Part shown: piece by piece, positions 8,218 to 48,397 of the stretch
How positions within the stretch are numbered: position 1 is the first letter of the stretch
Layout of the letters: the number at the start of each line of letters is the position of its first letter
Notes under the pieces: model-generated
Seen by the model: the letters and a program-made list of their open reading frames with translations, nothing else
The model's database searches: none
Told to the model about the DNA's origin: nothing
Made by a program: the position numbers and the translations under genes
From: a candidate division WWE3 bacterium
Lineage (GTDB): Bacteria > Patescibacteriota > WWE3 > UBA101185 > UBA10185
Direction of reading: 5' to 3'
DNA: 64,000 nucleotides
Assembly (NCBI GenBank): GCA_014729135.1
Contig: WJKK01000001.1
Location: 260,588-324,587, forward strand

Positions 8218-10212
8218 TTGCTTTATTATGGCCAAGATATGTCGTTAAGTTCTAAAAATAATCATGATTTGATGCAGCAGGATTCGGCGAATTCTGAGGG
8301 GTCGGATTCGAAGATGCTAAGTTCTAAAGAAATTATTGAGAAATATTTAGATTTTTATAAGAAGCGGGATCATAAAGAGATTCCCAATGTTTCGCTGCTT
8401 CCTAAGGAGGACTCTACACTTTTGTTTGTTAATTCGGGGATGTTTCCGCTGGTGCCCTATTTAATGGGGGAGCCTCATCCTATGGGGACGCGTTTGGTGA
8501 ATGTGCAGCGTTGCATTCGTTTTGAGGATATTGAGGAGGTTGGTGATAATCGGCATACGACGGCTTTTCACATGTTGGGAAATTGGAGTTTGAATGATTA
8601 TTTTAAGGAGGAGCAGCTTCATTGGGTTTATGAGTTTTTTTGGGATGTTTTGAGGCTTAAACCGGAGAAGACTTTTGCTACGGTTTTTGGAGGACGTGAT
8701 GGTGCTTCCAAGGATGAGATTTCTGTTGAGATTTTGGAGGAGATTTTTCGGGGGAAGGGTTTGGAGCTTAAGGAAGGTGAGCGACTCTTTTATTTAGGGA
8801 GTAATTGGTGGCAACGTGGAGATGCTGTTGGGGAGCTTGGTGGCCCTGATAGTGAGGTTTTTTACTATGTTCCTTCTGAAGACTCTGCGTCTCGCCATTC
8901 CTCTCAGTCTCCTGATCATCCTGAACTTGATTCAGAATCCATGCCAAAATCAGCTCAAGACCTAGAAGAACGCGAAGACGAATTCATGGAAATTGGTAAC
9001 TCCGTGTTTTTGCAATACGTAAAAACGGAAGACGGCTGGGAACAAATGGAAATGCAAAATGTAGACTTTGGCGGCGGTTTAGAGCGCTTGGCCATGATGG
9101 TTCAAGAGAAAAGCGACATTTTTGAGACCGATAACTTTTGGCCGGTTATACAGCGTTTGCAAGAGCTGACAAAAAAGACTTATAAAGCAGATCCGGAAAC
9201 CACTCGTCACATGCGGATTATTGCCGATCACATCCGTGCTTCAGTGTTTCTAGCAATGGATGGCGTTTTGCCTTCTAACAAAGATCAGGGTTACATCTTG
9301 CGCCGGTTACTTCGTCGGATTGTTCGGTCAGGTAAAAGTTTAGGTCTAGAAAAGGACATTTCCGTTGAGTTGGTGGGAATTGTGGTTAAAATGTTTTCTT
9401 GGTTGTATCCCGATCTTACGGAAAAGCAGTCCTCGCTTGAGGCGCTTTTTGCAGAGGAGGAGGCGAAGTTTAGAAAGACTTTAAATCGCGCTTCACGGGA
9501 GGTTGAACGTTTTTTGGAGAAGTCTAGCGAAAAGGATTTAAGTGCAGAGAAGCTGGCAAAACAGGCCTTTACTTTCTATCAATCCATGGGTTATCCCGAG
9601 GAGATTTTCCTTGAAGACTTGCGCGAACATGGCGTTACTATTGATACAGCAGACTTCAAATCCCATTTTGACAAGCTAGAACAGCGTCACAAAGAAAAAT
9701 CCCGTAAAGGTGCTGCCAAAAAATTTGAAGGGGGTTTGGCTGCCCATAGCGAAACTACAATTAAGTATCATACTGCAACTCATCTTTTGCATACGGCTTT
9801 GCGGGCGGTTTTAGAAGCGGATTCTGAAACTGATGTGGCTCAAAAAGGGAGTAATATCACGGATGAGCGTTTGCGTTTTGACTTTTCGTTCACGCGAAAG
9901 CTGGAGGAGTCTGAGTTGAAAGAAGTGGAGGCCCTGGTTAATGATGTTATTGAAGCAGGTTTGCCGGTTAATTTTGAGGTTATGCCTTTGGAGGATGCTG
10001 TAGAAACGGGGGCTTTGCACTTTTTTGATGAGAAGTATGGGGATAAGGTAAAGGTTTATTATGTAGGTGAAACTTTGGAATCAGCTTTTAGCAAGGAGTT
10101 TTGTGGGGGGCCTCATGTGGAAAACACTTCTGAGCTTTTTCCAATTGAGATTTACAAGCAAAAGAAGATTGGTAAGGGAGTAATTCGTCTTTACGCTCGT
10201 TTTAAAGAGTAA
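8218..10212 (+). CDS. alaS: alanine--tRNA ligase, short form lacking the C-Ala domain; true start probably near 8314
   Basis: Class II AlaRS core (LLFVNSGM, VQRCIR, HTTAFHMLGNWS, DFGGGLERL, IADHIRAS, GYILRRLLRR) and editing-domain motifs (HTATHLLHTALR, CGGPHV); 664 aa. Confidence 0.85.
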   Translation: MLYYGQDMSLSSKNNHDLMQQDSANSEGSDSKMLSSKEIIEKYLDFYKKRDHKEIPNVSLLPKEDSTLLFVNSGMFPLVPYLMGEPHPMGTRLVNVQRCIRFEDIEEVGDNRHTTAFHMLGNWSLNDYFKEEQLHWVYEFFWDVLRLKPEKTFATVFGGRDGASKDEISVEILEEIFRGKGLELKEGERLFYLGSNWWQRGDAVGELGGPDSEVFYYVPSEDSASRHSSQSPDHPELDSESMPKSAQDLEEREDEFMEIGNSVFLQYVKTEDGWEQMEMQNVDFGGGLERLAMMVQEKSDIFETDNFWPVIQRLQELTKKTYKADPETTRHMRIIADHIRASVFLAMDGVLPSNKDQGYILRRLLRRIVRSGKSLGLEKDISVELVGIVVKMFSWLYPDLTEKQSSLEALFAEEEAKFRKTLNRASREVERFLEKSSEKDLSAEKLAKQAFTFYQSMGYPEEIFLEDLREHGVTIDTADFKSHFDKLEQRHKEKSRKGAAKKFEGGLAAHSETTIKYHTATHLLHTALRAVLEADSETDVAQKGSNITDERLRFDFSFTRKLEESELKEVEALVNDVIEAGLPVNFEVMPLEDAVETGALHFFDEKYGDKVKVYYVGETLESAFSKEFCGGPHVENTSELFPIEIYKQKKIGKGVIRLYARFKE

Positions 10213-14195: not shown

Positions 14196-14540
14196 CGTTA
14201 GTTTGAAAATTAATTAAAAGCTTTGACGGAAGGTCATTAGTAGAATATCTTCAGTGACACCAGAGATTGTGCGGTAGCTGAAAGCACAACGTATGAAGTA
14301 GTTTGAATTACCCTTTCTGAGCTTTCCGACTGAAAAACCTTTTTTAGGTAGTAAGTTGGAACGGGCGATCCCGTTATAGATTTTGGAGTGTGTCACGAAT
14401 CGTAAAACGAAGCAACAGAGCACTTCTCAAGACTCTTATGGTGACATAAGGGTGAATTTAAGGTGGTACCGCGGTAATAAAGCCGTCCTTAGACTTTATC
14501 TATTAATTTAGATGAGGTTTGAGGACGGCTTTTTTTGTTG
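14196..14540 (+). promoter_or_regulatory. T-box riboswitch leader (tRNA-sensing transcription attenuator); specifier tentatively UAC (Tyr)
   Basis: T-box sequence aatttaaGGTGGTACCGCGG (14455-14474); F-box-like CCCGTTATA (14370-14378); AGUA S-turn element and AGAGA box in Stem I; terminator aaagccgtcc...ggacggcttt plus T-tract (14479-14537). Confidence 0.65.
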
Positions 14541-14673
14541 TAAAAAAGTCTTTTAAAAGCACTTTGAAAGAAAAATACTACTGACAATGCAGGAACTATT
14601 GAGATAGTGAGAATTTTTCGCTATTTCTGCGTTTCTGTATTGTTTGTTTCACTACCTAAAAAGGAGGAGCATT

Positions 14674-14886
14674 ATGGAGATGGAGGTAAGACTAGCCCCT
14701 ATTGGTGGGGGGATCTATGTGTTGAAGTCGGTTGTGAGTGGCGATTTTGTGTGTTTGGACCATGGGGGTACTCCGAGAATCACGAGTTTTGAAAGAGCCC
14801 GGAAGGGGACGGCTCAAGAGTTGGAGGAATTGGTCCGAAACCACATAGGATTGTATCTGCAAGAGGATGAGGCGTTGGGATACTAG
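14674..14886 (+). CDS. small hypothetical protein (70 aa from MEMEV...; ORF track gives 14644)
   Basis: Strong SD aaaggagg 8 nt before ATG 14674; GC content rises through the ORF; no recognised domain. Confidence 0.3.
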   Translation: MEMEVRLAPIGGGIYVLKSVVSGDFVCLDHGGTPRITSFERARKGTAQELEELVRNHIGLYLQEDEALGY

Positions 14887-14916
14887 AAAGCACGTGAAAA
14901 CCAGAGGAGATATAAG

Positions 14917-15828
14917 ATGAAAGCTTTACCTGAAAGTTTGGAGGGTTTCAACATCCTCCATGTCGTTTTGGATTCGTTGCGCTTTGACAGCGCGTCCCGG
15001 GCAGATACACCTGTGCTTGATTCCCTGGGGCCACTAATTGCCGCGCGAACTTTGGCACCCTACACTCCCGCAGCACATGCTGCTGCCTGGTTGGGCCACT
15101 TTCCGAGTGCGCCCACATCGGCGCTGCCTTACTACAATGAGACCGTACGGCAGCCCCTACGTATCACCACGGGTCCCGCCCGTGACGCGAACAAAGGCTG
15201 TGGGATGCTTTTGGATGGCGCCGATGTGCTGGATGGCCTGTGTCGAAAGGGTTATTCCACGTTAGGTTGGGGAGGTGTTTCCCAATTTAGTACAGGTAGC
15301 TGGCTTCGCCAGTTTGCCTGGGACCATTTCACTTATTTTGGAGTGGATATGGACGAGGAGCCTCTGGCACCGCGCGCACCTGAAACCTTTCCCTTGAATC
15401 TGAATCGTGTGGGCGAGATTTTGTCCACAATGTCTGATTATGGGAAGGTTCCTTGGTTCCTTTTTCTCAACGACCCCGCGCCACACTATCCCTATGATTG
15501 GGGGGAAGGTATTACCGAGGAAGTGCGGGAGGAGGCTTTTCCCTTGCTTAAGCTCAATCTGCGTTCTCACCATCTTGCCATGGAGAAGCGCGACATGCTG
15601 GCGCTTTATGCCCCTCTCCTTCAGCAGATGCAAGTAGATGGTTTGGAACGTTATATCGATCCTGGTCTTGGGGAACTTTTCAAAGGTCTTCGGCAGATCT
15701 CGGATCGCCCCGTCTTTGCAATTGTGCACGCCGATCATGGTGAGTACTTTGGTGAGGACGGACTGTATGGTCACATGCATGGAGGAATCTATGATATGAC
15801 TGTTCCTCTGTGGATTGGTGTACTCTAA
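14917..15828 (+). CDS. alkaline-phosphatase-superfamily enzyme (sulfatase / nucleotide pyrophosphatase-phosphodiesterase-like); GC-rich, likely acquired
   Basis: N-terminal metal-ligand motif NILHVVLDSLRFD and C-terminal HADHGEYFGE...GHMHGG resemble AlkP-superfamily signatures; local GC (estimated by eye) is far above the flanks. Confidence 0.5.
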   Translation: MKALPESLEGFNILHVVLDSLRFDSASRADTPVLDSLGPLIAARTLAPYTPAAHAAAWLGHFPSAPTSALPYYNETVRQPLRITTGPARDANKGCGMLLDGADVLDGLCRKGYSTLGWGGVSQFSTGSWLRQFAWDHFTYFGVDMDEEPLAPRAPETFPLNLNRVGEILSTMSDYGKVPWFLFLNDPAPHYPYDWGEGITEEVREEAFPLLKLNLRSHHLAMEKRDMLALYAPLLQQMQVDGLERYIDPGLGELFKGLRQISDRPVFAIVHADHGEYFGEDGLYGHMHGGIYDMTVPLWIGVL

Positions 15829-15853
15829 AGGAGGTGAAACAACTATAGTCATC

Positions 15854-15900
15854 GGGCTCCTCGCTCTTGCCAAGCGTCAACTAAGCTTAGCGAGGAGCCC
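15854..15900 (+). terminator. GC-rich hairpin closing the GC-rich block
   Basis: gggctcctcgct (15854-15865) pairs with agcgaggagccc (15889-15900), a 12-bp stem with a 23-nt loop; no clear T-tract. Confidence 0.4.
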
Positions 15901-15938
15901 GGTAGAATTTTACCAGAAACGTTTTAACAAGTTAGAAT

Positions 15939-16520
15939 ATGATTATGAAACTAAAAATACTAGGTATTGCCCAAGATGGGGGAGTACCGCAAATAAATTG
16001 TCAGTGTAAAAATTGTAAGACATCTCGTACTGAAGGTGTGCCTTTGTTTGCGACCTCCTTACTTGTAGAGAGAGCTAAAGGAAAAAGTACCTTAATTGAT
16101 GTTTCTCCCGATATAAAAAATCAGCTGACACCCACTGAATTTAATGGTATAGACAGTATTGTTTTAACCCATGCACATGTAGGTCACATTGGCGGGTTGC
16201 TTCAGTTTGGCTTTGAGATAGCAAATAAAAAAGGCGTTAATCTTTTTGCATCTCCGGAAATGCACTCTTTCTTACAGGATAATGAGCCTTGGAAACAGTT
16301 ATTTGAAAATGGAAATATAGTTCCGTGCAAATTTAGATTTGAAGAAACTTTTGCTCTTGAGGAGTTAAGAGTTACCCCTTTAAAAGTTCCTCATAGGGAT
16401 GAAATAGCAGATACAAGCGGTTTTATATTGGAAGGTGATTTCAAAAAAGTTTTATTTATTCCCGATATTAAGAACTGGCTTGTTTGGGAGAAAGACTTGA
16501 AAGAGGAAGTAAGTAAGTAA
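15939..16520 (+). CDS. MBL-fold metallo-hydrolase (PqqB-like), N-terminal part; interrupted by an in-frame TAA inside a (GTAA)5 repeat
   Basis: LTHAHVGHIGGL metal-binding motif; the ORF ends in ...EVSK* within gtaagtaagtaagtaagtaa. Confidence 0.55.
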   Translation: MIMKLKILGIAQDGGVPQINCQCKNCKTSRTEGVPLFATSLLVERAKGKSTLIDVSPDIKNQLTPTEFNGIDSIVLTHAHVGHIGGLLQFGFEIANKKGVNLFASPEMHSFLQDNEPWKQLFENGNIVPCKFRFEETFALEELRVTPLKVPHRDEIADTSGFILEGDFKKVLFIPDIKNWLVWEKDLKEEVSK

Positions 16521-16529
16521 GTAAGTAAG
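16506..16529 (+). repeat. tetranucleotide repeat, five to six (GTAA)/(AGTA) units
   Basis: gaagtaagtaagtaagtaagtaagg seen directly; it sits between two in-frame ORFs. Confidence 0.8.
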
Positions 16530-16787
16530 GTGGATATTGCCCTTATTGATGGTACCTTTTTTAGTTTAGATGAGTTACCCGGTAGGGATGTTGCGGAAAT
16601 AGGTCATCCCTTAATTAGAGATAGTATTGAGGAATTGGAAGGCTTGTCTGATATCGGGAAAAAGAAAGTTCATTTTATACACTTTAATCACAGCAATCCT
16701 GTTTTGAGTGCCAAAGGAGAAGCGAGGAAATTTATTGCGGAGGCAGGTTTCAATTTGGCGGAGCAAGGAATGGTATTAGAAATATAA
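16530..16787 (+). CDS. MBL-fold metallo-hydrolase (PqqB-like), C-terminal part; same frame as 15939..16520, GTG start
   Basis: Continuation of the beta-lactamase-fold C-terminal region (HFIHFNHSNP); both ORFs start at positions divisible by 3. Confidence 0.45.
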   Translation: MDIALIDGTFFSLDELPGRDVAEIGHPLIRDSIEELEGLSDIGKKKVHFIHFNHSNPVLSAKGEARKFIAEAGFNLAEQGMVLEI

Positions 16788-16797
16788 CTAAGAGTAT

Positions 16798-16883
16798 CCG
16801 GGGATACCAAAGTGGTCAACTGGGGCGGTCTGTAAAACCGCTGGCTTTTGCCTACGCTGGTTCGAATCCAGCTCCCCGGACCA
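16798..16883 (+). tRNA. tRNA-Tyr (anticodon GUA), long variable arm, CCA encoded
   Basis: Acceptor ccgggga/tccccgg; anticodon stem gcggt/accgc with loop CUGUAAA; variable arm tggcttttgcctacgctgg; T-arm gctgg-ttcgaat-ccagc. Confidence 0.8.
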
Positions 16884-42012: not shown

Positions 42013-42285
42013 ATGCTATTTATCTCGTTATCATTAATAATTGGTTTTACGTTGGGGCTTGTGTTTAGGGGAAGATTCAGTAACCTTGAATTTTTGGAAA
42101 AGGTCATGGACCTATTGGTCCTACTACTTATTTTCTCTATAGGCATGAATTTAGGTTCCAACACCGTTTTGTTGGAGAATTTCTCCACACTTGGATTTCA
42201 GAGTATCCTTTTGGCTCTCTTCTGCTCCGCAGGAAGTGTCCTCTTAGTATTTCTTTTTACACTTAGGAGAAATAAGAATGTTTAA
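42013..42285 (+). CDS. LysO/DUF340-family membrane protein, small subunit
   Basis: 90-aa three-TM protein overlapping a 197-aa paralogous-fold membrane protein, the typical split DUF340 pair. Confidence 0.4.
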   Translation: MLFISLSLIIGFTLGLVFRGRFSNLEFLEKVMDLLVLLLIFSIGMNLGSNTVLLENFSTLGFQSILLALFCSAGSVLLVFLFTLRRNKNV

Positions 42286-42871
42286 AACAGGTACTGCTTT
42301 CTTATTGGGGACATTTGGAGGTTATTTGCTGTTGCGCAATTTTTCCCTTGATATAAGTTCCGCCATTTCTTACCTAGTTGCTCTTTTGCTGTTTTTTGTT
42401 GGTTTTTTGGTTGGAAATGATAGTAGGATTCTCGGAGATTCTTCCTGGAGAGTTCGTGATTATTTGGTGCCTTTGTTTTCCTTGATGGGTTCTGTCCTTG
42501 GGGGTTTATTAGTTGCTGCCCTTATTGGATCATTGCCTTTTTCGGATGCACTTCTCGCCTCTTTGGGAATGGGTTATTACAGTGTTCCTAGCATAATAGT
42601 TACCGCTCGTTTAAGTACCTCTATTGGTTCTTTAGTTCTGCTTACAAACATTTTACGTGAGGTGCTGGTTTTACTCTTTACTCCTCTTTTGGTTAAGAAA
42701 TTAAATAGGTTAGCACCCATTGCTCTTGGAGGTACTACAACAATGGATGTTTCGCTGCCCATAATTACAGAGTATTCGGGAAAGGACTATGTGGTGCCTG
42801 CTTTTATAAATGGAGTTGTTTTAACGGTAATAGTTCCATTGTTAGTAAGTTTAACCGTTTCTTTAATTTAA
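42278..42871 (+). CDS. LysO/DUF340-family membrane protein, large subunit
   Basis: 197-aa six-TM protein; ATGA-type overlap with the upstream partner. Confidence 0.4.
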   Translation: MFKTGTAFLLGTFGGYLLLRNFSLDISSAISYLVALLLFFVGFLVGNDSRILGDSSWRVRDYLVPLFSLMGSVLGGLLVAALIGSLPFSDALLASLGMGYYSVPSIIVTARLSTSIGSLVLLTNILREVLVLLFTPLLVKKLNRLAPIALGGTTTMDVSLPIITEYSGKDYVVPAFINGVVLTVIVPLLVSLTVSLI

Positions 42872-42880
42872 GGAGTTTTT

Positions 42881-43306
42881 ATGAAACAGGATTTTAGTAA
42901 AAAGATTAGTATAGTTATTAGCAATGAAATTCCCGACTGGAAGGCTATGAATGCTGTAGGCCATATAGCCGCTTATTTCGGTAATAAAATGGATGCAGTA
43001 TTTGATACGGGGGAGTCTTTTGTTGCACAGGATGGTGTGGCAATACCCCGTAACTCTCAATATGGCATTGTCGTTCTACAGGCGGATCAGGAGGGCTTGA
43101 ACGAATGGGCTTTAGAAATGCGTTCTGTCACCGATGTCCAGACAATGTTTTTTGTTAAAGAGATGATTGATACGGGGGATGATATTGAGTTGCAGCAAAT
43201 GTTGGATGTTCAAGACTTCAAGGATATTATCTTTTATGGAGTGGGTCTTTTTGGAGGGAATGAGATTTTAAGGGGTTATACAAATGCTTTCAAACTCTGG
43301 AGTTAG
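42881..43306 (+). CDS. hypothetical cytoplasmic protein
   Basis: 141 aa with no recognised motif; SD-adjacent to the previous gene. Confidence 0.35.
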   Translation: MKQDFSKKISIVISNEIPDWKAMNAVGHIAAYFGNKMDAVFDTGESFVAQDGVAIPRNSQYGIVVLQADQEGLNEWALEMRSVTDVQTMFFVKEMIDTGDDIELQQMLDVQDFKDIIFYGVGLFGGNEILRGYTNAFKLWS

Positions 43307-43330: not shown

Positions 43331-43359
43331 TTGTCTCCTCTGCTTTTTCATGCTAGAAT
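43331..43359 (+). promoter_or_regulatory. sigma70-like promoter driving the second T-box leader
   Basis: TTGTCT (43331-43336), 17 nt spacer, TAGAAT (43354-43359). Confidence 0.45.
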
Positions 43360-43365
43360 CCTGTC

Positions 43366-43675
43366 ATTGAAAAATAAATACTAAAAGCTATGATGAAGAG
43401 AGTACCAATAGGAAACGGTTTTACAGAGAGCGGTGCAAAGGTGAGAGTGCCGCATTTACGCCCTTTTGGGAACAAAGCTTCGGAGCTGCTGGAAGAAATT
43501 GCGTTTCGCGCAAGAGTAGAACCGTGCCGGGAGAGCCCGTTATAGCCGAAAACCTTGCTAGAGGTTGTAAGGCCTGTCTGGAAACGGATAGGTAAAAAGA
43601 GGTGGTACCGCGACAATAATCGCCCTCATTTGGATCTAAGTATATGCTTGGGTTTAGGTGAGGGCGTTTTTTGTT
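43366..43675 (+). promoter_or_regulatory. T-box riboswitch leader; specifier tentatively AAA (Lys)
   Basis: Stem I parallels the glyQS Stem I: K-turn AUGAUGA, GAAG, AGAGAGUA, upper stem ccaatagg/ccttttgg, loop GAACAAAG, CUUC. F-box CCCGTTATA (43536-43544), T-box GGTGGTACCGCGA (43601-43613), terminator cgccctca...tgagggcg plus T-tract (43621-43672). Confidence 0.65.
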
Positions 43676-43720
43676 GCCCTAATAAATAACGGGTTACATT
43701 TATAAGCAAGGAGGTTCGAG

Positions 43721-44908
43721 ATGGGGAAGCAAGTTTTGGTGATGGGGGTTAGGCGGCAATATCAGTTCGACGGAGATTGGGGAGACTGGCTTCGGCTCGG
43801 TGTTCGGCGTCTTCTGACTTTACAGTCAGGAGATGTTGCAGTCCTGCCGGAGATTTGGGGCATTCCCGAGTATGTGGAGCACTTGCAGGAGGTTTGGGGT
43901 ATCAATTTGGAGGTCCTGTGGGTGAGCGGTAGGTTTTACCTCCTGGATAGCGCTATTCTGGAGACCCCGAGGGTTCTCGGGCGTCTTCAGGAACTGGGAG
44001 GACAAGGTGCAGTTTTTGTGCTGTACGATAGTTCGACGTCACACTTCCAGTCTTGGTGGCGATTGATGCCGCAGGAAGCTCGTTTGTGTGGAGAGACTTT
44101 GGAGTGGGGTAGTCGATGGAACACCAAGAAGTGGTTGTACCGAGACGCTAGGAATCCAGAGCAACCTTCGATTGCCGAACGGTTGGATATTCCGGTACTC
44201 TCAGGCTACAATGCAGGATCCGTCGCGGAGCTGTTGAAGGCTTGGGACCTAATAGGATGTGGCTCGGTTATCATCAAGCCGTTGACAGCGGCGTTTGGTG
44301 ACGGTTTGGTGGTTGCGCATGAACGGAGTGATTTGGAGTCCTATACTTTCCCACTCGGTTCGGTGGGTGTGGAGGAGTATGTGGAAGGTTATCCCCAGCC
44401 TTGGTCCACCCACTGGGTAGGGGAGGAGCTGCTTGGACCTCCGACTTCCCAGCTTCTTCACGGGAGCACTGCCGTGGGAAACGTCACTCCAGGGGATTTT
44501 GACGCGGCGATGCAGGGGCAGCTTCTGGCGTTGACCCGTGAGTTTGTTCGGGCAGCCCAGCCCCGCGGCTATGGGGGCCTCAACGGGTTGATCGACGCCG
44601 AAGGGGTACCCCGCGTGACGGATGCCAATTGTAGGGAGACGGGTGTTTGCTCGACGCTCGTTTTCCGTGACCGTTATTGTCCCGGGGCGGTGACGGTAAA
44701 CAAGAAGTTGGGGAGACCTAACATGTCCGTTGGAGATGCTTGGCAGTGTCTTCAAGCGGCAGGCTTAGCATTCGACATCTCGGCGCGACGAGGAATAGCC
44801 CTCCAGGGGTGGTTACCCTCGATGTGGAGTCGCATGACCTGCGCCGCAGACACGAGGCAAGAGGCCTTAGAGCTGCTCAATGCAGCAAAGGAGGCTTTAG
44901 GTATGTAA
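43721..44908 (+). CDS. ATP-grasp-fold enzyme (RimK/LysX-like ligase family); GC-rich, likely acquired
   Basis: Strong SD aaggagg. VIIKPLTAAFGDGLVV (central ATP-grasp lysine strand), VGVEEYVEGY (E-x-Y-I/V hinge), LIDAEGVPRVTDANCRETG (Mg-binding Asp/Asn loop). Local GC (estimated by eye) is well above the flanks. Confidence 0.5.
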   Translation: MGKQVLVMGVRRQYQFDGDWGDWLRLGVRRLLTLQSGDVAVLPEIWGIPEYVEHLQEVWGINLEVLWVSGRFYLLDSAILETPRVLGRLQELGGQGAVFVLYDSSTSHFQSWWRLMPQEARLCGETLEWGSRWNTKKWLYRDARNPEQPSIAERLDIPVLSGYNAGSVAELLKAWDLIGCGSVIIKPLTAAFGDGLVVAHERSDLESYTFPLGSVGVEEYVEGYPQPWSTHWVGEELLGPPTSQLLHGSTAVGNVTPGDFDAAMQGQLLALTREFVRAAQPRGYGGLNGLIDAEGVPRVTDANCRETGVCSTLVFRDRYCPGAVTVNKKLGRPNMSVGDAWQCLQAAGLAFDISARRGIALQGWLPSMWSRMTCAADTRQEALELLNAAKEALGM

Positions 44909-44927: not shown

Positions 44928-44976
44928 GCGATGGGAGGGTATGGGCCGGTTGGATATCGTCCAACCCTCCTATCGC
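44928..44976 (+). terminator. long imperfect GC-rich hairpin closing the second GC-rich block
   Basis: gcgatgggagg...[ggttgg-atatcgt-ccaacc]...cctcctatcgc nested stems 20 nt after the ATP-grasp stop. Confidence 0.4.
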
Positions 44977-44996
44977 GCATCAATTGTAAGGTAAAA

Positions 44997-46091
44997 ATGA
45001 TAAACAGACAAAGATTAATAAATACATTTTTAGAAATAGTTCAGATTGATAGCCCTTCGGGTGCGGAAGGAGCTATGGTGGAATACGTAACTTCTTTTCT
45101 ACACGCGTTAGGAGTGCGCCATGTAGTGGATTCTTTTGGCAACGTTATTGCTTATACTGAAGGTTCCGGAGGGCCTCTCTTGTTAAGTGCGCACTTAGAT
45201 ACAGTTGAGCCCGGAAGAGCTATTGCTCCTGTCATTGAAGACGGCTTTATCAGAAGTTCCGGCGACACCATTTTAGGCGCTGATAACAAGGTTGCAGTAG
45301 CCTCTCTGTTGGAGTTGATACGTACACTGACGGAAGCATCTGTAACCGATATTCCTTCTTTAGAGGTTATTTTTACGCTTTCAGAGGAAGTTGCGAATTT
45401 GGGAGCTGTAAATCTTGATTATTCTCTTCTGAGTGCGCGAGAAGGTTTTACTTTTGATAGTGGAAGTTCTTTGGGTACAGTTATTACCGACTCTCCTTTC
45501 TATAATCGGTTTGATATAGTTGTTAATGGTGTTGCCTGCCATGCAGGACATCCGGAAAGAGGCCTAAATGCTTTAAGTTTGGTGGTTAATGCGCTATCTC
45601 AAATTACTCTGGGTCAGACCGGTCTTGAAACCACTTGCAACATAGGTTTGATTGAGGGGGGAGTTGCACGCAATATTGTCCCCGGGCAAATTACTCTCCG
45701 AGGAGAAGTACGCAGTTTTGTAGAGAGTGTCCTAGAGGAAATGTGCACGGATATTAGTAGCGTTTTTCAGAAAGTAGTTGCAGAAAATGAGGGCTCCGTG
45801 GAAATAGAGATTGTTCGCGAAAATAGTGGCTTCAGTTTTTCTGCTGATGACCCTCTGTTGAGATACACTATGCGAATTCTAGAAGATTTAGAGCTTTCCC
45901 CAACCCCGCGTGTTTCTACGGGTTGTTATGATGCTAACATATTTCAGGAGCATGGGATTTGTGTTCTAAACTTGGGTAATGGTTCCGTGGATAATCACAC
46001 AATTAGGGAAAAGATTTCTGTGGTAGACTTAGAAATGCTGGCAAACCTTGTATATAGTTTAGTGATGGGTTTTAATAGGTACAGGAATTAA
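44997..46091 (+). CDS. M20-family metallopeptidase (PepT/tripeptidase-like); the ORF-track start 44931 lies inside the upstream hairpin, so ATG 44997 is preferred
   Basis: MINRQRLINTFLEIVQIDSPSG, HLDTVEPG and the dimerisation-domain layout of M20B peptidases. Confidence 0.7.
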   Translation: MINRQRLINTFLEIVQIDSPSGAEGAMVEYVTSFLHALGVRHVVDSFGNVIAYTEGSGGPLLLSAHLDTVEPGRAIAPVIEDGFIRSSGDTILGADNKVAVASLLELIRTLTEASVTDIPSLEVIFTLSEEVANLGAVNLDYSLLSAREGFTFDSGSSLGTVITDSPFYNRFDIVVNGVACHAGHPERGLNALSLVVNALSQITLGQTGLETTCNIGLIEGGVARNIVPGQITLRGEVRSFVESVLEEMCTDISSVFQKVVAENEGSVEIEIVRENSGFSFSADDPLLRYTMRILEDLELSPTPRVSTGCYDANIFQEHGICVLNLGNGSVDNHTIREKISVVDLEMLANLVYSLVMGFNRYRN

Positions 46092-46105: not shown

Positions 46106-47581
46106 ATGTCGACAATAGCAGATCTTCGTAAGGTAAGGCTTGAACAACTGGAGAAAATAAAAAAGCTTGGTTTAAATCCCTATCCTGCTGAATCCAAAAA
46201 AGACTATCCAAATAAAGAAATTCTAGATAATTTTGAGGATCTTGAAGGCAAGAGCGCAAATATTACAGGGCGCATAACTTCAATACGTGAACATGGAGCT
46301 TTAGTTTTCATAGATTTAGCCGATGAGTCCGGTGTAATTCAACTTTATATTAGAGAGGACACACTAAAAGCAACAGATCTCCAAGATCAGATTTTAGGTT
46401 TTGACCATATAAGCCTTTTAGGTACAGGTGATTTTATTCAAGCTTTTGGAGAAGTTACAAAAACAAAGTCGGGTCAAATTTCCCTAAAAGTAGAATCACT
46501 AAAACTTCTCTCAAAGTCCTTGCGACCAATCCCGGAAGAACTAAAAGATATTGAAGAGCGTTACCGCAAACGTTACCTGGATTTTCTACTAAATCCCCGT
46601 TCAAAGGAAATCTTGGATACGCGTTGGAAAATAGAGGAAGAAACACGTAAATTCCTTTGGAATCAAGGATTTAAAGAGGTGGAAACTCCCATTTTGCAGA
46701 CGCTTTATGGAGGTACTAATGCCGAACCTTTTACAACACATTTTAATGCTTTAAATACCGATTTTTATCTTCGTATAGCCCCAGAACTTTATTTAAAGCG
46801 TTTAATAGTGGGAGGTTACGAAAAAGTTTTTGAAATAGCCCGCAACTTTAGAAACGAGGGCATAGATCAAACGCACTTTCCTGAATTTACAATGCTTGAA
46901 TGGTATGAGGCTTATGCTGATTACCATCGGGTTATGGATTTAGCGGAGGCTTTGACAAAGCATCTGGTCTTGAAATTAACAGGCGGAACAACAATAAAAG
47001 TTAATGATCAAGAAATAGATATTAGCGGTACTTGGCCACGTATTCCTGTAGAGGATTTGGCGAAGGAACACCTGGGCATTGAGTGGGATTCCATAGCGGA
47101 TGATGAAATTAAGGATCTGTTGAATAAGCACAAAATTCAAGTTGCAGGTGTTTGGGATCGGGAAAAAGCTTTGTTTACTTTGTATGATCATCTGGTTACG
47201 CCTAAATTAATAGAGCCTGTTTGGGCAATAGATTATCCGCAGTCTGTAAGTCCTTTATCTAAGGCGCATAGAACCAAGGAAAAGCGTGCAGAAAGATTTG
47301 AAGGTTACATTGGAGGTGTGGAGATTTTTGACGGATGGAGTGAGATTGTTTCAGGTCTTGAACAACGTCGTCGTTTTGAGGTGGAGCAGCGAAACATGAA
47401 AGAGGGCGATAAGGAAGCCATGCCTTTAGATGAGGAGTTTATTGAAGCCTTAGAGTACGGTTGCCCTCCTTTGGGTGGAATTGGTTTTGGGATTGACCGC
47501 TTGGTTATGTTTTTAACGGATACTTGGGGTATAAAAGATGTTGTAGCCTTCCCGATTTTAAAGCCTCGCTCCGATAGTTAA
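46106..47581 (+). CDS. lysS: lysine--tRNA ligase (class II)
   Basis: N-terminal OB-fold anticodon-binding domain; class II motifs (FRNEGID, LGGIGFGIDRLVM); 491 aa. Confidence 0.9.
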   Translation: MSTIADLRKVRLEQLEKIKKLGLNPYPAESKKDYPNKEILDNFEDLEGKSANITGRITSIREHGALVFIDLADESGVIQLYIREDTLKATDLQDQILGFDHISLLGTGDFIQAFGEVTKTKSGQISLKVESLKLLSKSLRPIPEELKDIEERYRKRYLDFLLNPRSKEILDTRWKIEEETRKFLWNQGFKEVETPILQTLYGGTNAEPFTTHFNALNTDFYLRIAPELYLKRLIVGGYEKVFEIARNFRNEGIDQTHFPEFTMLEWYEAYADYHRVMDLAEALTKHLVLKLTGGTTIKVNDQEIDISGTWPRIPVEDLAKEHLGIEWDSIADDEIKDLLNKHKIQVAGVWDREKALFTLYDHLVTPKLIEPVWAIDYPQSVSPLSKAHRTKEKRAERFEGYIGGVEIFDGWSEIVSGLEQRRRFEVEQRNMKEGDKEAMPLDEEFIEALEYGCPPLGGIGFGIDRLVMFLTDTWGIKDVVAFPILKPRSDS

Positions 47582-47637
47582 CCCCCTCTCTAAAAAACTG
47601 GCCAAAAACATATATAATTACAACGAAAGGAAAAAAG

Positions 47638-47859
47638 ATGTCAAAAAAACTAGACCCAAAAGACAAAAATTACGTCGACAAACTAGCTGACAACCTTGAA
47701 GGTGTAGGATTTTCCGGCTCCGAAGAATTAGGCGCTGCCGTAAAAGAAGTAGCAGAAGCCAACGGATATTCCTCCAAAAAAGGACGCGGAAAATTTTTCA
47801 CCACAATAAAAAGACTTTTAGGATTACCTGTAAAATCAAAGGACGAAGCTAATGATTAA
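47638..47859 (+). CDS. small hypothetical protein
   Basis: 73-aa ORF with an SD; no recognised motif. Confidence 0.3.
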   Translation: MSKKLDPKDKNYVDKLADNLEGVGFSGSEELGAAVKEVAEANGYSSKKGRGKFFTTIKRLLGLPVKSKDEAND

Positions 47860-48397
47860 TCGTGAGGAAGCTCAAGCACTTTTGGAAGAGCATGTAACGG
47901 ACGAATATCAGCTGCTGCACGCTTTTATGGTGGCCTCTGCAATGGAAGCTTACGCTGAAGAGTTGGGTGAAGATGCTGACGTTTGGTTTCTGACGGGACT
48001 TTTGCATGACCTGGATTACGAGGAATTCCCTGAAGAGCACCCTATGCGGTCGATTCACTGGTTATCCGATGAGGACGTTCCGGAAGAGCTTTTGCATGCA
48101 ATTGAAGCGCACGCCTATTTAAGAACCGGTGTTGAACCTGAAACTAATCTGGCAGCAGCGCTAATTGCGGTGGATGAGCTTTCCGGCTTTATGTACGCTT
48201 ATTCGCTAATGAGACCTTCCGGTTTTGAAGGCATGAAAGCATCCAAAGTGGTTAAAAAGCTGAAAGATAAAGCCTTTGCAGCAAAGATCTCTCGTGAGGA
48301 TATTTATTATGGCGTTGAAAAATTTGAGGTTGATATGAAGGAGCATATTAACTTTTTGCTGGGGGTTTTTAACGATTTACCGGAGTTGGAAAAATAA
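47852..48397 (+). CDS. HD-domain phosphohydrolase
   Basis: H...HD motif (LLHDLDYEEF) and downstream His/Asp ligands; 181 aa. Confidence 0.6.
   Translation: MINREEAQALLEEHVTDEYQLLHAFMVASAMEAYAEELGEDADVWFLTGLLHDLDYEEFPEEHPMRSIHWLSDEDVPEELLHAIEAHAYLRTGVEPETNLAAALIAVDELSGFMYAYSLMRPSGFEGMKASKVVKKLKDKAFAAKISREDIYYGVEKFEVDMKEHINFLLGVFNDLPELEK

What the first reader, a model, noticed from the sequence alone, without database searches (positions are those of the whole stretch)
43331..43675. Second T-box leader, Stem I closely parallel to the glyQS Stem I, candidate Lys specifier
Seen directly: TTGTCT-17-TAGAAT promoter. Stem I elements in order are K-turn AUGAUGA, GAAG, AGAGAGUA, upper stem ccaatagg/ccttttgg, specifier loop GAACAAAG, CUUC closing pairs and K-turn 3' side. 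An F-box CCCGTTATA and the T-box GGTGGTACCGCGA follow, with the terminator overlapping. In the same register as leader 1 (GAA-N-codon) the specifier is AAA (Lys), and lysS lies downstream on the same strand. The alternative readings CAA (Gln) and ACA (Thr) cannot be excluded by eye.
Basis: partly seen in the sequence, partly recalled or inferred. Interest (0 to 1): 0.75.

Follow-up and report, generated by a model that had tools for sequence, protein, structure and literature searches.

The report
Lysine T-box riboswitch in CPR bacterium
This is a real tRNA-sensing "T-box" RNA switch that reads tRNA-Lys and should switch on a ligase/peptidase/lysyl-tRNA-synthetase operon when lysine is short; the mechanism is well known, but lysine versions are rare, and this one sits in an ultra-small candidate-phylum (WWE3) bacterium and scores just under the standard detection threshold.

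Summary
Window 43381-43630 (+) matches the Rfam T-box model over its full length (89.8 bits, E 3e-18; gathering score 93). All canonical parts are present: K-turn, specifier loop, AGAGA/UGAGA platform, Stem II S-turn, F-box, Stem III, UGGUACC bulge, and a terminator (43621-43672) that overlaps the antiterminator. The specifier is AAA (Lys, 43474-43476). Homologous leaders found elsewhere read GAA-AAA-A, GAA-AAG-A and C-AAG-A at the same position. CAA and ACA do not occur in them, so Gln and Thr are excluded. The operon is a PGM1/BesA-like ATP-grasp ligase, a PepT-like M20 peptidase and class II lysS. The source is a candidate division WWE3 (CPR) genome. The lysS gene lies in the lineage's conserved position (lysS-HD-serS-BacA-SecA), so it is probably the housekeeping copy, whereas previously described T-box-controlled LysRS genes were always accompanied by a second LysRS. 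The same greA/T-box(Lys)/ATP-grasp/M20/LysRS layout recurs in distant relatives. Other relatives have Lys-rich leader peptides with terminators instead. Verdict: a new member of a known kind, of moderate interest.

The parts
43331..43359 (+). Promoter-like site: TTGTCT, 17-nt spacer, TAGAAT with TG-extended -10. The inferred transcription start is about 43366.
   Evidence: 9/12 match, TG before -10. Such sites are not enriched over shuffles. A -35/-10 pair lies at the equivalent position in L084 and L208.
43381..43630 (+). T-box leader: full-length match to RF00230.
   Evidence: 89.8 bits, E 3.3e-18 for the whole window, model positions 1-219/219.
43387..43486 (+). Stem I. It comprises basal GC/GC pairs, a K-turn (AUGAUGA / GGA), lower helix GAAG/CUUC, the specifier loop (AGAGUA / GAACAAAG), upper stem CCAAUAGG/CCUUUUGG, AG bulge AGAGA (43425-43429), and a distal helix and loop with UGAGA (43442-43446).
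   Evidence: AGAGA plus UGxRA is the IDTM consensus (PMC7583486). The pair closing the bulge is G-C, C-G and A-U in three homologues.
43474..43476 (+). Specifier codon AAA (Lys), followed by purine G43477 and then helix CUUC.
   Evidence: CM register. TBDB +0 frame. Homologues have AAA+A (L084) and AAG+A (L208/L209, L104, L135).
43489..43526 (+). Stem II with S-turn (AAGAAA / GAGUAGAA) and upper hairpin UUGCGU-UUC-GCGCAA.
   Evidence: The flanking sequence GGAAGAAAUU...AGUAGAACC is conserved in L084 and L208.
43528..43544 (+). Stem IIA hairpin CGGG-AGAG-CCCG and F-box CCCGUUAUA.
   Evidence: The helix is invariant between the window and L084 (helix 8).
43572..43593 (+). Stem III: 9 bp with a GAAA loop, with purine flanks AAGG(G) on the 5' side and AAAAA on the 3' side.
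   Evidence: helix 9: 4 of 9 pairs compensated against L084, 100% paired. The RRRxG-Stem III-AA motif is described in PMC7583486.
43599..43627 (+). Antiterminator. Helix A1 is GAGG/CCUC. The 7-nt T-box bulge UGGUACC lies at 43603-43609, with UGGU expected to pair with tRNA 3'-ACCA. Helix A2 is GCGA/UCGC and closes with G-C instead of G.U.
   Evidence: -7.6 kcal/mol; helices 10 and 11; the A2 closing pair is G-C here and A-U in L084. The G-C variant is known to be functional (PMC11404447).
43621..43672 (+). Intrinsic terminator: a 20-21 bp hairpin (43621-43666) followed by UUUUUU. Its 5' arm (43621-43627) is the 3' half of the antiterminator, so the two folds exclude each other.
   Evidence: (-37.2 kcal/mol, z = -8.3), and (two compensatory pairs against L084).
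43721..44908 (+). First regulated gene: a PGM1/BesA-like ATP-grasp amino-acid/peptide ligase (395 aa). The RBS AAGGAGG lies at 43708-43714.
   Evidence: 115 relatives; PreAtp-grasp and ATP-grasp_3 domains in relatives; pLDDT 95.6; 8ynd, 8yi6 BesA and 3wvq PGM1; TM 0.73-0.78.
44931..46091 (+). Second gene: a PepT-like M20 metallopeptidase (386 aa; NCBI MBD3365998.1).
   Evidence: (3gb0 Peptidase T, E 3e-59).
46106..47581 (+). Third gene: class II lysyl-tRNA synthetase lysS (491 aa; NCBI MBD3365999.1). It starts 14 nt after the M20 stop codon.
   Evidence: NF001756, 557 bits; P0116, 100% identical.

Best explanation
This is a canonical, feature-complete transcriptional T-box riboswitch specific for tRNA-Lys.

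Proposed mechanism:
1. Transcription starts near 43366.
2. Stem I presents the specifier AAA (43474-43476) to the UUU anticodon of tRNA-Lys. The AGAGA/UGAGA platform stacks on the tRNA elbow, and the Stem II S-turn buttresses the codon-anticodon helix.
3. If the bound tRNA is uncharged, its 3'-ACCA end pairs with UGGU (43603-43606) in the 7-nt bulge. This stabilises the weak antiterminator (43599-43627), so RNA polymerase reads through into the operon: ATP-grasp ligase, PepT-like M20 peptidase and lysS.
4. If the tRNA is charged, the much more stable terminator (43621-43672) forms and transcription stops before the RBS at 43708.

The net effect is that low Lys-tRNA-Lys charging raises LysRS, together with two enzymes that presumably feed or manage the lysine pool.

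Shown here: the RNA architecture, the Lys register, the covariation, the operon content and its recurrence in other genomes. Inferred: the start site, tRNA binding, read-through, co-transcription of lysS, and the role of the two enzymes.
For: - Family match: full-length RF00230 match, E 3.3e-18.
- Conserved motifs: all present at canonical positions (consensus from PMC7583486).
- Competing folds: terminator -37.2 kcal/mol (z = -8.3) against antiterminator -7.6 kcal/mol, sharing 43621-43627.
- Specifier: the CM register is GAA-C-AAA-G and the TBDB +0 frame is AAA.
- Homologous leaders: each keeps a Lys codon in that frame with synonymous third-base change. L084 has AAA and lies directly before lysS-HD. 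L208/L209 have AAG before ATP-grasp-M20-LysRS-HD. L135 has AAG before ATP-grasp-M20. L104 has AAG before ORF-M20-tRNA_bind-class I LysRS.
- T-box bulge: all have UGGU, which fits the A73 discriminator that I recall as typical of bacterial tRNA-Lys. This is background knowledge, not a tool result.
- Covariation: the canonical structure on window versus L084 is 93% paired, with 12 compensated pairs, against 36-49% paired and 2-5 compensated pairs when partners are slid. The bulge-closing pair is G-C, C-G and A-U in three homologues.
- Operon: intergenic gaps are 22 and 14 nt. The only terminator-like matches between the leader terminator and the lysS stop codon are two weak 6-bp, noise-level sites, at 45161-45176 inside the M20 gene and 47461-47478 inside lysS.
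Against: - The score is 3 bits below Rfam's gathering cut-off.
- No tRNA-Lys gene is in the window or in any related locus, so the anticodon and discriminator match to the host tRNA is untested.
- Helix A2 closes with G-C rather than the conserved G.U aminoacyl sensor. This is reported as a rarer but working variant.
- The promoter call is at noise level.
- A promoter-like site at 46030-46058, just upstream of lysS, could give T-box-independent lysS expression.
- Close relatives L001, L085, L086 and L087 have the syntenic lysS without any T-box, so this control is dispensable in the lineage.
- There are no expression or binding data.
Confidence: 0.9

Rival explanations
1. It is a T-box, but the specifier is CAA (Gln) or ACA (Thr), read one or two bases 5' of AAA. 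The operon would then respond to tRNA-Gln or tRNA-Thr.
For: The bulge GAACAAAG contains both triplets, each followed by a purine. TBDB lists CAA as an allowed alternative frame, and 95% of Gln specifiers are CAA. UGGU could wobble-pair with a G73 discriminator.
Against: - Homologous leaders read GAAAAAA, GAAAAGA and CAAGA and contain no CAA or ACA in any allowed frame.
- ACA lies outside the five-base range that TBDB considers.
- No Gln- or Thr-related gene lies downstream, whereas LysRS follows in four of the leaders.
- tRNA-Gln in the related locus L002 has G73, which favours UGGC.
Confidence: 0.03
2. The T-box controls mainly the ATP-grasp and M20 genes. lysS is expressed largely from its own internal promoter and is not meaningfully T-box regulated.
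For: A promoter-like site, TAGAAA-17-TATAGT, lies at 46030-46058, about 50 nt before lysS. Relatives L085-L087 and L001 run the syntenic lysS without a T-box. ATP-grasp/M20 pairs occur under Lys-type leaders without a visible LysRS on the contig (L135, L081), but those contigs end just after the pair.
Against: - The gap between M20 and lysS is only 14 nt with no terminator.
- That promoter match is at shuffle level.
- In L084 the homologous T-box sits directly in front of lysS-HD.
- In L208/L209 and L104 a LysRS ends the same operon, so LysRS is a recurrent target of this leader family.
Confidence: 0.15
3. It is a decaying, non-functional T-box relic, which would explain why it falls below the Rfam threshold.
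For: The score is 89.8 against a gathering score of 93. G-C replaces G.U in helix A2. The CM marks several non-canonical pairs in the middle of Stem I and in Stem II.
Against: - Every functional motif is intact.
- The helices are maintained by compensatory changes against L084, and the bulge-closing pair also against L208.
- Three homologous leaders score 90-92 bits, so the low score is a clade property and not decay.
- The CM's 'non-canonical' Stem II pairs are the expected S-turn.
- The G-C variant is reported as functional.
Confidence: 0.04
4. The switch is not strictly mono-specific. AAA-G also offers AAG in the -1 frame, which could bind tRNA-Lys(CUU). As with the B. cereus lysK T-box, near-cognate tRNA-Asn may also partially induce it.
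For: CAAAG contains both AAA and AAG. Homologues use either Lys codon. The B. cereus lysK T-box is partially induced by uncharged tRNA-Asn (PMC2916919). TBDB notes that alternative frames exist.
Against: In the AAG frame, the base 3' of the codon is C43478, which is paired in the lower helix, so the stacking purine would be missing. The tRNA repertoire of the host is not known.
Confidence: 0.15

Closest known systems
[quoted passage not shown] 2010, PMC2916919)
   Same: A transcriptional T-box that senses tRNA-Lys and controls a lysyl-tRNA synthetase. It belongs to the rarest specificity classes (Lys, Glu and Gln are the least common in TBDB).
   Different: [quoted passage not shown]
- Here the host is a candidate division WWE3 (CPR) bacterium with an 864-kb contig.
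- The regulated lysS is the syntenic housekeeping copy.
- It is the third gene, behind an ATP-grasp ligase and an M20 peptidase.
Bacillus subtilis tyrS-type 'feature-complete' T-box (Stem I + Stem II + IIA/B + Stem III + antiterminator)
   Same: The same domain order and the same motifs: K-turn, S-turns, IDTM, F-box, 7-nt UGGNACC bulge and a competing terminator.
   Different: - The specifier is AAA instead of UAC.
- Helix A2 closes with G-C instead of G.U.
- An extra hairpin lies between the F-box and Stem III.
- The score is sub-threshold against the Firmicute-dominated Rfam model.
glyQS T-box
   Same: The general Stem I plan: K-turn, specifier loop and distal platform.
   Different: glyQS leaders lack Stem II and the IIA/B pseudoknot (PMC7583486), and this leader has both. 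Leader 1 of this window is not a glyQS leader either.
Lysine riboswitch (L-box, RF00168)
   Same: A cis-acting RNA that couples lysine supply to gene expression by transcription termination.
   Different: The L-box binds free lysine and has a different fold. There is no RF00168 match in the window. This element senses tRNA-Lys charging.
Ribosome-mediated leader-peptide attenuators (trp, his, thr type)
   Same: They also sense tRNA charging and act through a terminator. Candidate Lys-codon versions precede homologues of the same ATP-grasp gene in L081/L082, L210/L212 and L213.
   Different: The window leader has no leader peptide and works by direct tRNA-RNA contact.

Membership tests
T-box leader (Rfam RF00230) | Statistically significant full-length match to the family covariance model | tested here: met
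   89.8 bits, model positions 1-219/219, E 3.1e-20 for the region and 3.3e-18 for the whole window.
T-box leader (Rfam RF00230) | Reaches Rfam's curated gathering score of 93 bits. This is an operational cut-off, not a structural criterion. | tested here: not met
   89.8 < 93. The homologues L084 (90.0) and L208 (91.8) also fall just below, so the shortfall is clade-wide.
T-box leader (Rfam RF00230) | Stem I with a K-turn at its base, a specifier loop with S-turn (AGUA/GAA) and a codon followed by a purine | tested here: met
   AUGAUGA/GGA; AGAGUA / GAA-C-AAA-G. The flanking helices covary.
T-box leader (Rfam RF00230) | Distal Stem I platform: AG bulge AGAGA plus distal loop UGxRA (IDTM) | tested here: met
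   AGAGA at 43425-43429 and UGAGA at 43442-43446. The consensus is from PMC7583486.
T-box leader (Rfam RF00230) | Stem II S-turn and Stem IIA/B with F-box (CCGUUA) | tested here: met
   AAGAAA / GAGUAGAA and CGGGAGAGCCCGUUAUA. The IIB pseudoknot pairing itself was not examined.
T-box leader (Rfam RF00230) | Stem III with flanking purines (RRRxG ... AA) | tested here: met
   AAGG-G[CCUGUCUG GAAA CGGAUAGG]U-AAAAA. Four of nine pairs are compensated against L084.
T-box leader (Rfam RF00230) | Antiterminator with a 7-nt bulge UGGNACC between helices A1 and A2 | tested here: met
   GAGG-UGGUACC-GCGA...UCGC-CCUC. A1 and A2 are 100% paired in both sequences.
T-box leader (Rfam RF00230) | G.U wobble closing helix A2 (steric sensor of the aminoacyl group) | tested here: not met
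   The pair is G43610-C43623. G-C is a documented, less frequent, functional substitute (PMC11404447 citing Li et al. 2019). L208 also has G-C, L084 has A-U, and L104 and L135 have G.U.
T-box leader (Rfam RF00230) | Mutually exclusive intrinsic terminator (or sequestrator) overlapping the 3' strand of the antiterminator | tested here: met
   Terminator 43621-43666 plus a U6 run; it shares 43621-43627 with A2 and A1.
T-box leader (Rfam RF00230) | Uncharged-tRNA-dependent antitermination | not testable with these tools
   This needs in vitro transcription or an in vivo reporter.
Lys-specific T-box | Lys codon (AAA/AAG) in the specifier frame, conserved in orthologous leaders | tested here: met
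   AAA in the window and L084; AAG in L208/L209, L104 and L135.
Lys-specific T-box | Specifier agrees with the amino acid of the downstream gene(s) | tested here: met
   Class II LysRS in the window, L084 and L208; class I LysRS in L104.
Lys-specific T-box | UGGN pairs with the discriminator of the host tRNA-Lys, and the anticodon UUU is present in the host | not testable with these tools
   No tRNA-Lys is in the window or in any related locus. UGGU predicts A73, which I recall as the usual bacterial tRNA-Lys discriminator; this is background knowledge, not tested here.

The most novel reading that the evidence does not exclude
The leader is one member of an undescribed, CPR-wide lysine-starvation regulon. 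A PGM1/BesA-like ATP-grasp ligase and a PepT-like M20 hydrolase, usually next to greA and LysRS, are switched on by low tRNA-Lys charging. The control is either a sub-threshold clade of Lys T-boxes or, in other lineages, Lys-codon leader-peptide attenuators. I found no description of the latter type of attenuator. The enzyme pair would then be an unrecognised route for supplying or buffering lysine in organisms that cannot make it. In these genomes the T-box would govern the only LysRS, contrary to the published pattern that T-box-regulated LysRS is always a spare copy.
Probability: 0.4. Interest if true: 0.6.

Novelty: new member of a known kind. Interest (0 to 1): 0.42.

Why it matters
T-box control of LysRS was reported in only four species and always alongside a second LysRS (PMC2916919). 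Here it appears on what looks like the housekeeping lysS of a roughly 0.86-Mb candidate-phylum genome, and related leaders recur across distant CPR-like lineages.

All of these leaders fall below Rfam's gathering score (about 49-92 bits against 93). Threshold-based annotation, and resources built on it, would therefore miss them, and T-box use in CPR bacteria is probably under-counted.

The specifier also gives a functional handle on two poorly characterised genes, a PGM1/BesA-like ligase and a PepT-like peptidase. It ties them to lysine economy in organisms that depend on scavenged amino acids.

Tried and rejected
- Whole-window Rfam scan at the gathering threshold missed the element. It was recovered with the E-value threshold.
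- The miRNA-family hits on 43604-43683 (mir-H11 and others) are artefacts of the long terminator hairpin.
- The word-indexed protein search found nothing for the 395-aa ORF. The exhaustive HMMER search found 115 relatives.
- Exact-sequence contig look-ups for the window's LysRS, for P0116 and for the ATP-grasp ORF found no record, so the rest of the genome (tRNA-Lys, a second LysRS) could not be inspected.
- The genome-contig scan with LysRS returned mostly relatives about 40% identical. The two closest loci (L001, L002) have no T-box.
- The metagenome pattern GTAGAACCN{3,4}CGGGNNNGCCCGTTA proved generic, giving mostly Ile-type (ATC) leaders from other lineages. Only L104 and L135 were useful.
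- L081/L082, L083, L210/L212 and L213 have no T-box.
- The G-C closing pair of A2 was considered as a defect and rejected, because it is a known functional variant.
- The alternative promoter TTGAAA-16-TATGAT (43367-43394) was rejected because its -10 is the K-turn itself.
- Literature searches linking T-boxes with Saccharibacteria, CPR, Patescibacteria or Parcubacteria found nothing relevant.
- I did not model the Stem IIB pseudoknot, and I did not obtain the published Lys T-box sequences for direct alignment.
Full report
**1. What is there**

The region 43381-43630 (+) aligns to the Rfam T-box model RF00230 over all 219 model positions. The score is 89.8 bits, with E 3.1e-20 when the region is scanned alone and 3.3e-18 for the whole 64-kb window on both strands. 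It falls 3 bits short of the curated gathering score of 93, which is why the default scan reported only the other T-box, at 14214-14493.

Reading the sequence against the alignment gives every canonical element:
- Basal GC/GC pairs and a K-turn (AUGAUGA / GGA).
- A lower helix, GAAG/CUUC.
- A specifier loop with AGAGUA on the 5' side and GAACAAAG on the 3' side.
- An upper stem, CCAAUAGG/CCUUUUGG.
- The AG bulge AGAGA and the distal-loop pentamer UGAGA. These fit the AGAGA/UGxRA consensus of the double T-loop platform that stacks on the tRNA elbow (PMC7583486).
- Stem II with an S-turn (AAGAAA / GAGUAGAA).
- Stem IIA with the F-box, CCCGUUAUA.
- A 9-bp Stem III with a GAAA loop and purine flanks.
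- An antiterminator, GAGG-UGGUACC-GCGA...UCGC-CCUC.

A 20-21-bp hairpin at 43621-43666 followed by UUUUUU is a strong intrinsic terminator (-37.2 kcal/mol, z = -8.3). Its 5' arm is the 3' strand of the antiterminator (-7.6 kcal/mol), so the two folds exclude each other.

The promoter-like TTGTCT-17-TAGAAT with a TG-extended -10 exists at 43331-43359. Such matches are as common in shuffled sequence, so the promoter stays an inference. It is helped by a -35/-10 pair at the same distance in the homologous L084 leader.

**2. Which tRNA**

The covariance model puts GAACAAAG into the eight unpaired specifier columns as GAA-C-AAA-G. TBDB's rule gives priority to positions 2-4 counted from the 3' end of the bulge, which selects AAA. 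The +/-1 frames give AAG (also Lys) and CAA (Gln), and ACA lies outside the range considered (PMC7778990).

Comparison settles the matter. L084 encodes a LysRS-HD fusion 71% identical to the window's LysRS and shares the same downstream gene order. It carries a clearly homologous leader (90.0 bits) directly upstream of lysS, with the bulge GAAAAAA, so every frame there reads AAA. L208/L209 carry another homologue (91.8 bits) with GAAAAGA, which gives AAG plus A. Two more divergent leaders, in L135 (49.3 bits, short Stem I) and L104 (51.4 bits), have CAAGA, again AAG plus A.

The +0 triplet is therefore always a Lys codon and varies only synonymously, and CAA and ACA are absent from these leaders. 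All five leaders have UGGU in the T-box bulge, which predicts an A73 discriminator. I recall A73 as the usual bacterial tRNA-Lys discriminator, but this is background knowledge and was not tested. The tRNA-Gln of the related locus L002 ends in G73. No tRNA-Lys gene was available to test the pairing directly.

**3. Structural support**

I imposed the canonical 'ON' structure on the window/L084 alignment. 93% of cells pair and 12 of 50 pairs are kept through changes on both sides. When the 3' partners are slid by 1-3 columns, 36-49% of cells pair and 2-5 pairs are compensated. Compensated pairs lie in the lower and upper Stem I helices, the distal helix, Stem III (4 of 9) and helix A2. RNAalifold also finds two compensated pairs in the terminator. 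In a three-way alignment, the pair that closes the specifier bulge is G-C, C-G and A-U.

With only two or three sequences these numbers are indicative rather than statistical. They do argue against a decaying relic.

One departure from consensus is that helix A2 closes with G-C instead of the G.U wobble that acts as the 3'-aminoacyl sensor. G-C is reported to work and to be less frequent (PMC11404447 citing Li et al. 2019). L208 shares G-C, L084 has A-U, and L104 and L135 have G.U.

**4. What it controls**

Downstream, with gaps of 22 and 14 nt, lie three genes. The only terminator-like matches inside this stretch are two weak 6-bp sites at noise level, one within the M20 gene and one within lysS.

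- 43721-44908 encodes a 395-aa protein with no Pfam or NCBIfam hit of its own. It has 115 relatives in the exhaustive search, and several of them carry PreAtp-grasp, ATP-grasp_3 or PGM1_C domains. The AlphaFold model is confident (pLDDT 95.6). Its best structural matches are a Streptomyces ATP-grasp peptide ligase (8ynd), BesA (8yi6) and PGM1 (3wvq), with TM 0.73-0.78. It is therefore an amide-bond-forming amino-acid or peptide ligase.
- 44931-46091 encodes a PepT-like M20 metallopeptidase (TIGR01883, 225 bits; PDB 3gb0, E 3e-59).
- 46106-47581 encodes a class II LysRS.

A lysine exporter (LysO, apparently in two ORFs) and a DUF2000 gene lie immediately upstream.

**5. Organism and context**

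The LysRS and M20 proteins are identical to NCBI MBD3365999.1 and MBD3365998.1 from a 'candidate division WWE3 bacterium', on an 864,248-bp contig. This is a CPR/Patescibacteria genome.

The order lysS-(HD)-serS-methyltransferase-BacA-SecA is shared with L084, L085 and L086. greA directly precedes lysS in L001, L002 and L087. The window's lysS is therefore the syntenic, presumably housekeeping, copy. About 4.9 kb has come to lie between greA and lysS: a minus-strand ORF, LysO, DUF2000, the T-box, the ATP-grasp gene and the M20 gene.

Foy et al. found T-box control of LysRS in only four species, each with a second, unregulated LysRS (PMC2916919). I could not check whether this genome has a second LysRS.

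The layout greA / T-box(Lys) / ATP-grasp / M20 / LysRS recurs in L208/L209, whose LysRS is only 40% identical to the window's. It recurs partly in L135. In L104 the operon ends with a tRNA-binding-domain protein and a class I LysRS. T-box presence is patchy among the closest relatives: it is absent from L001, L085, L086 and L087.

**6. An independent hint that the ATP-grasp/M20 pair belongs to a lysine regulon**

Homologues of the ATP-grasp gene that lack a T-box are preceded by short Lys-rich ORFs and then a strong hairpin with a T-run:
- L081/L082: MQFVAKKSKSKKTSGGG, hairpin -26.2 kcal/mol.
- L210/L212: MIFVVATIAKKAKKRSKGG..., hairpin -25.2 kcal/mol.
- L213 (weaker): MIGVVKMFKGKYEPR, hairpin -14.5 kcal/mol.

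The architecture is that of a leader-peptide attenuator reading Lys codons. I did not test for the alternative antiterminator pairings, so this remains a lead.

**7. Comparison with known systems and novelty**

Its specificity class (Lys) is known but among the rarest.

The new points are:
- the host phylum; I found no paper in the held library that links T-boxes to CPR groups, which is absence of evidence only;
- the sub-threshold score of the whole clade;
- the likely housekeeping status of the regulated lysS;
- the co-regulated ATP-grasp/M20 pair.

I rate it a new member of a known kind, of moderate interest.

**8. Correction to the finding's premise**

'Leader 1' (14214-14493, 108.5 bits) is followed by a 70-80-aa ORF, an STM4013-like hydrolase, an MBL/PqqB-like gene and tRNA-Tyr(GTA). 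It is not followed by glyQS. Its specifier is ambiguous (UAC, ACC or UUA).

Noticed in passing
window 14214-16883: The other T-box (108.5 bits) is not a glyQS leader. Downstream are a small ORF (14644-14886), a 303-aa STM4013/SEN3800-like hydrolase (14917-15828), an MBL/PqqB-like gene and tRNA-Tyr(GTA) at 16798-16883. The specifier bulge GAAUUACC(C) is ambiguous: it could be UAC (Tyr), ACC (Thr) or UUA (Leu), and no purine follows in the CM register. A T-box in front of a hydrolase and a tRNA gene is unusual.
   Followed up: partly
L081 289-400 (= L082 172-283); L210 2752-2890 (= L212 1841-1980); L213 2639-2735: Homologues of the ATP-grasp gene that lack a T-box are preceded by short Lys-rich ORFs: MQFVAKKSKSKKTSGGG, MIFVVATIAKKAKKRSKGGPLLPCRG and MIGVVKMFKGKYEPR. 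Each is followed by a strong hairpin and a T-run (-26, -25 and -14.5 kcal/mol). They look like Lys-codon leader-peptide attenuators, a type I could not find described.
   Followed up: partly
window 42013-43306: A lysine exporter (LysO, PF03956) appears as two overlapping ORFs (42013-42285 and 42278-42871), which suggests a frameshift or a two-part gene. A DUF2000 gene follows, directly upstream of the Lys T-box. Lysine export and lysine-starvation genes are therefore neighbours.
   Followed up: no
window 46106-48397; L002, L084, L086, L208: Many relatives encode LysRS fused to a C-terminal HD domain (about 695-735 aa). In the window, the HDIG protein is a separate gene (47852-48397) after a 73-aa ORF. 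This recurrent LysRS-HD association has no function known to me.
   Followed up: no
window 43721-44908: The exact 395-aa ATP-grasp sequence is not in the 15-billion-protein collection, although its two neighbours are (MBD3365998.1 and MBD3365999.1). A 61-aa fragment (P0008) matches residues 335-395 at 100%. The gene may be annotated with another start, or not called in full, in the public record.
   Followed up: no
window 15939-16787: The MBL-fold/PqqB-like gene is split into two ORFs, 15939-16520 (N-terminal part) and 16530-16787 (matching PqqB profile positions 210-297). This may be a frameshift or a pseudogene.
   Followed up: no
window 43604-43683: Several eukaryotic or viral miRNA-precursor families (mir-H11 at 35.6 bits, MIR4227 and others) match the T-box terminator hairpin at permissive thresholds. 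These are artefacts of a long, near-perfect hairpin.
   Followed up: yes
L104 668-3702: In this metagenome contig, a Lys (AAG) T-box precedes a 238-aa ORF with no family match, an M20 peptidase, a stand-alone tRNA-binding-domain protein (PF01588) and a class I LysRS (PF01921). The same leader type therefore serves both LysRS classes in CPR-like genomes.
   Followed up: partly
window 8218-10212: The alanyl-tRNA synthetase is the short form (664 aa; best match NF002436/PRK01584, profile length 595), not the roughly 850-aa TIGR00344 profile. This fits the reduced genome.
   Followed up: no
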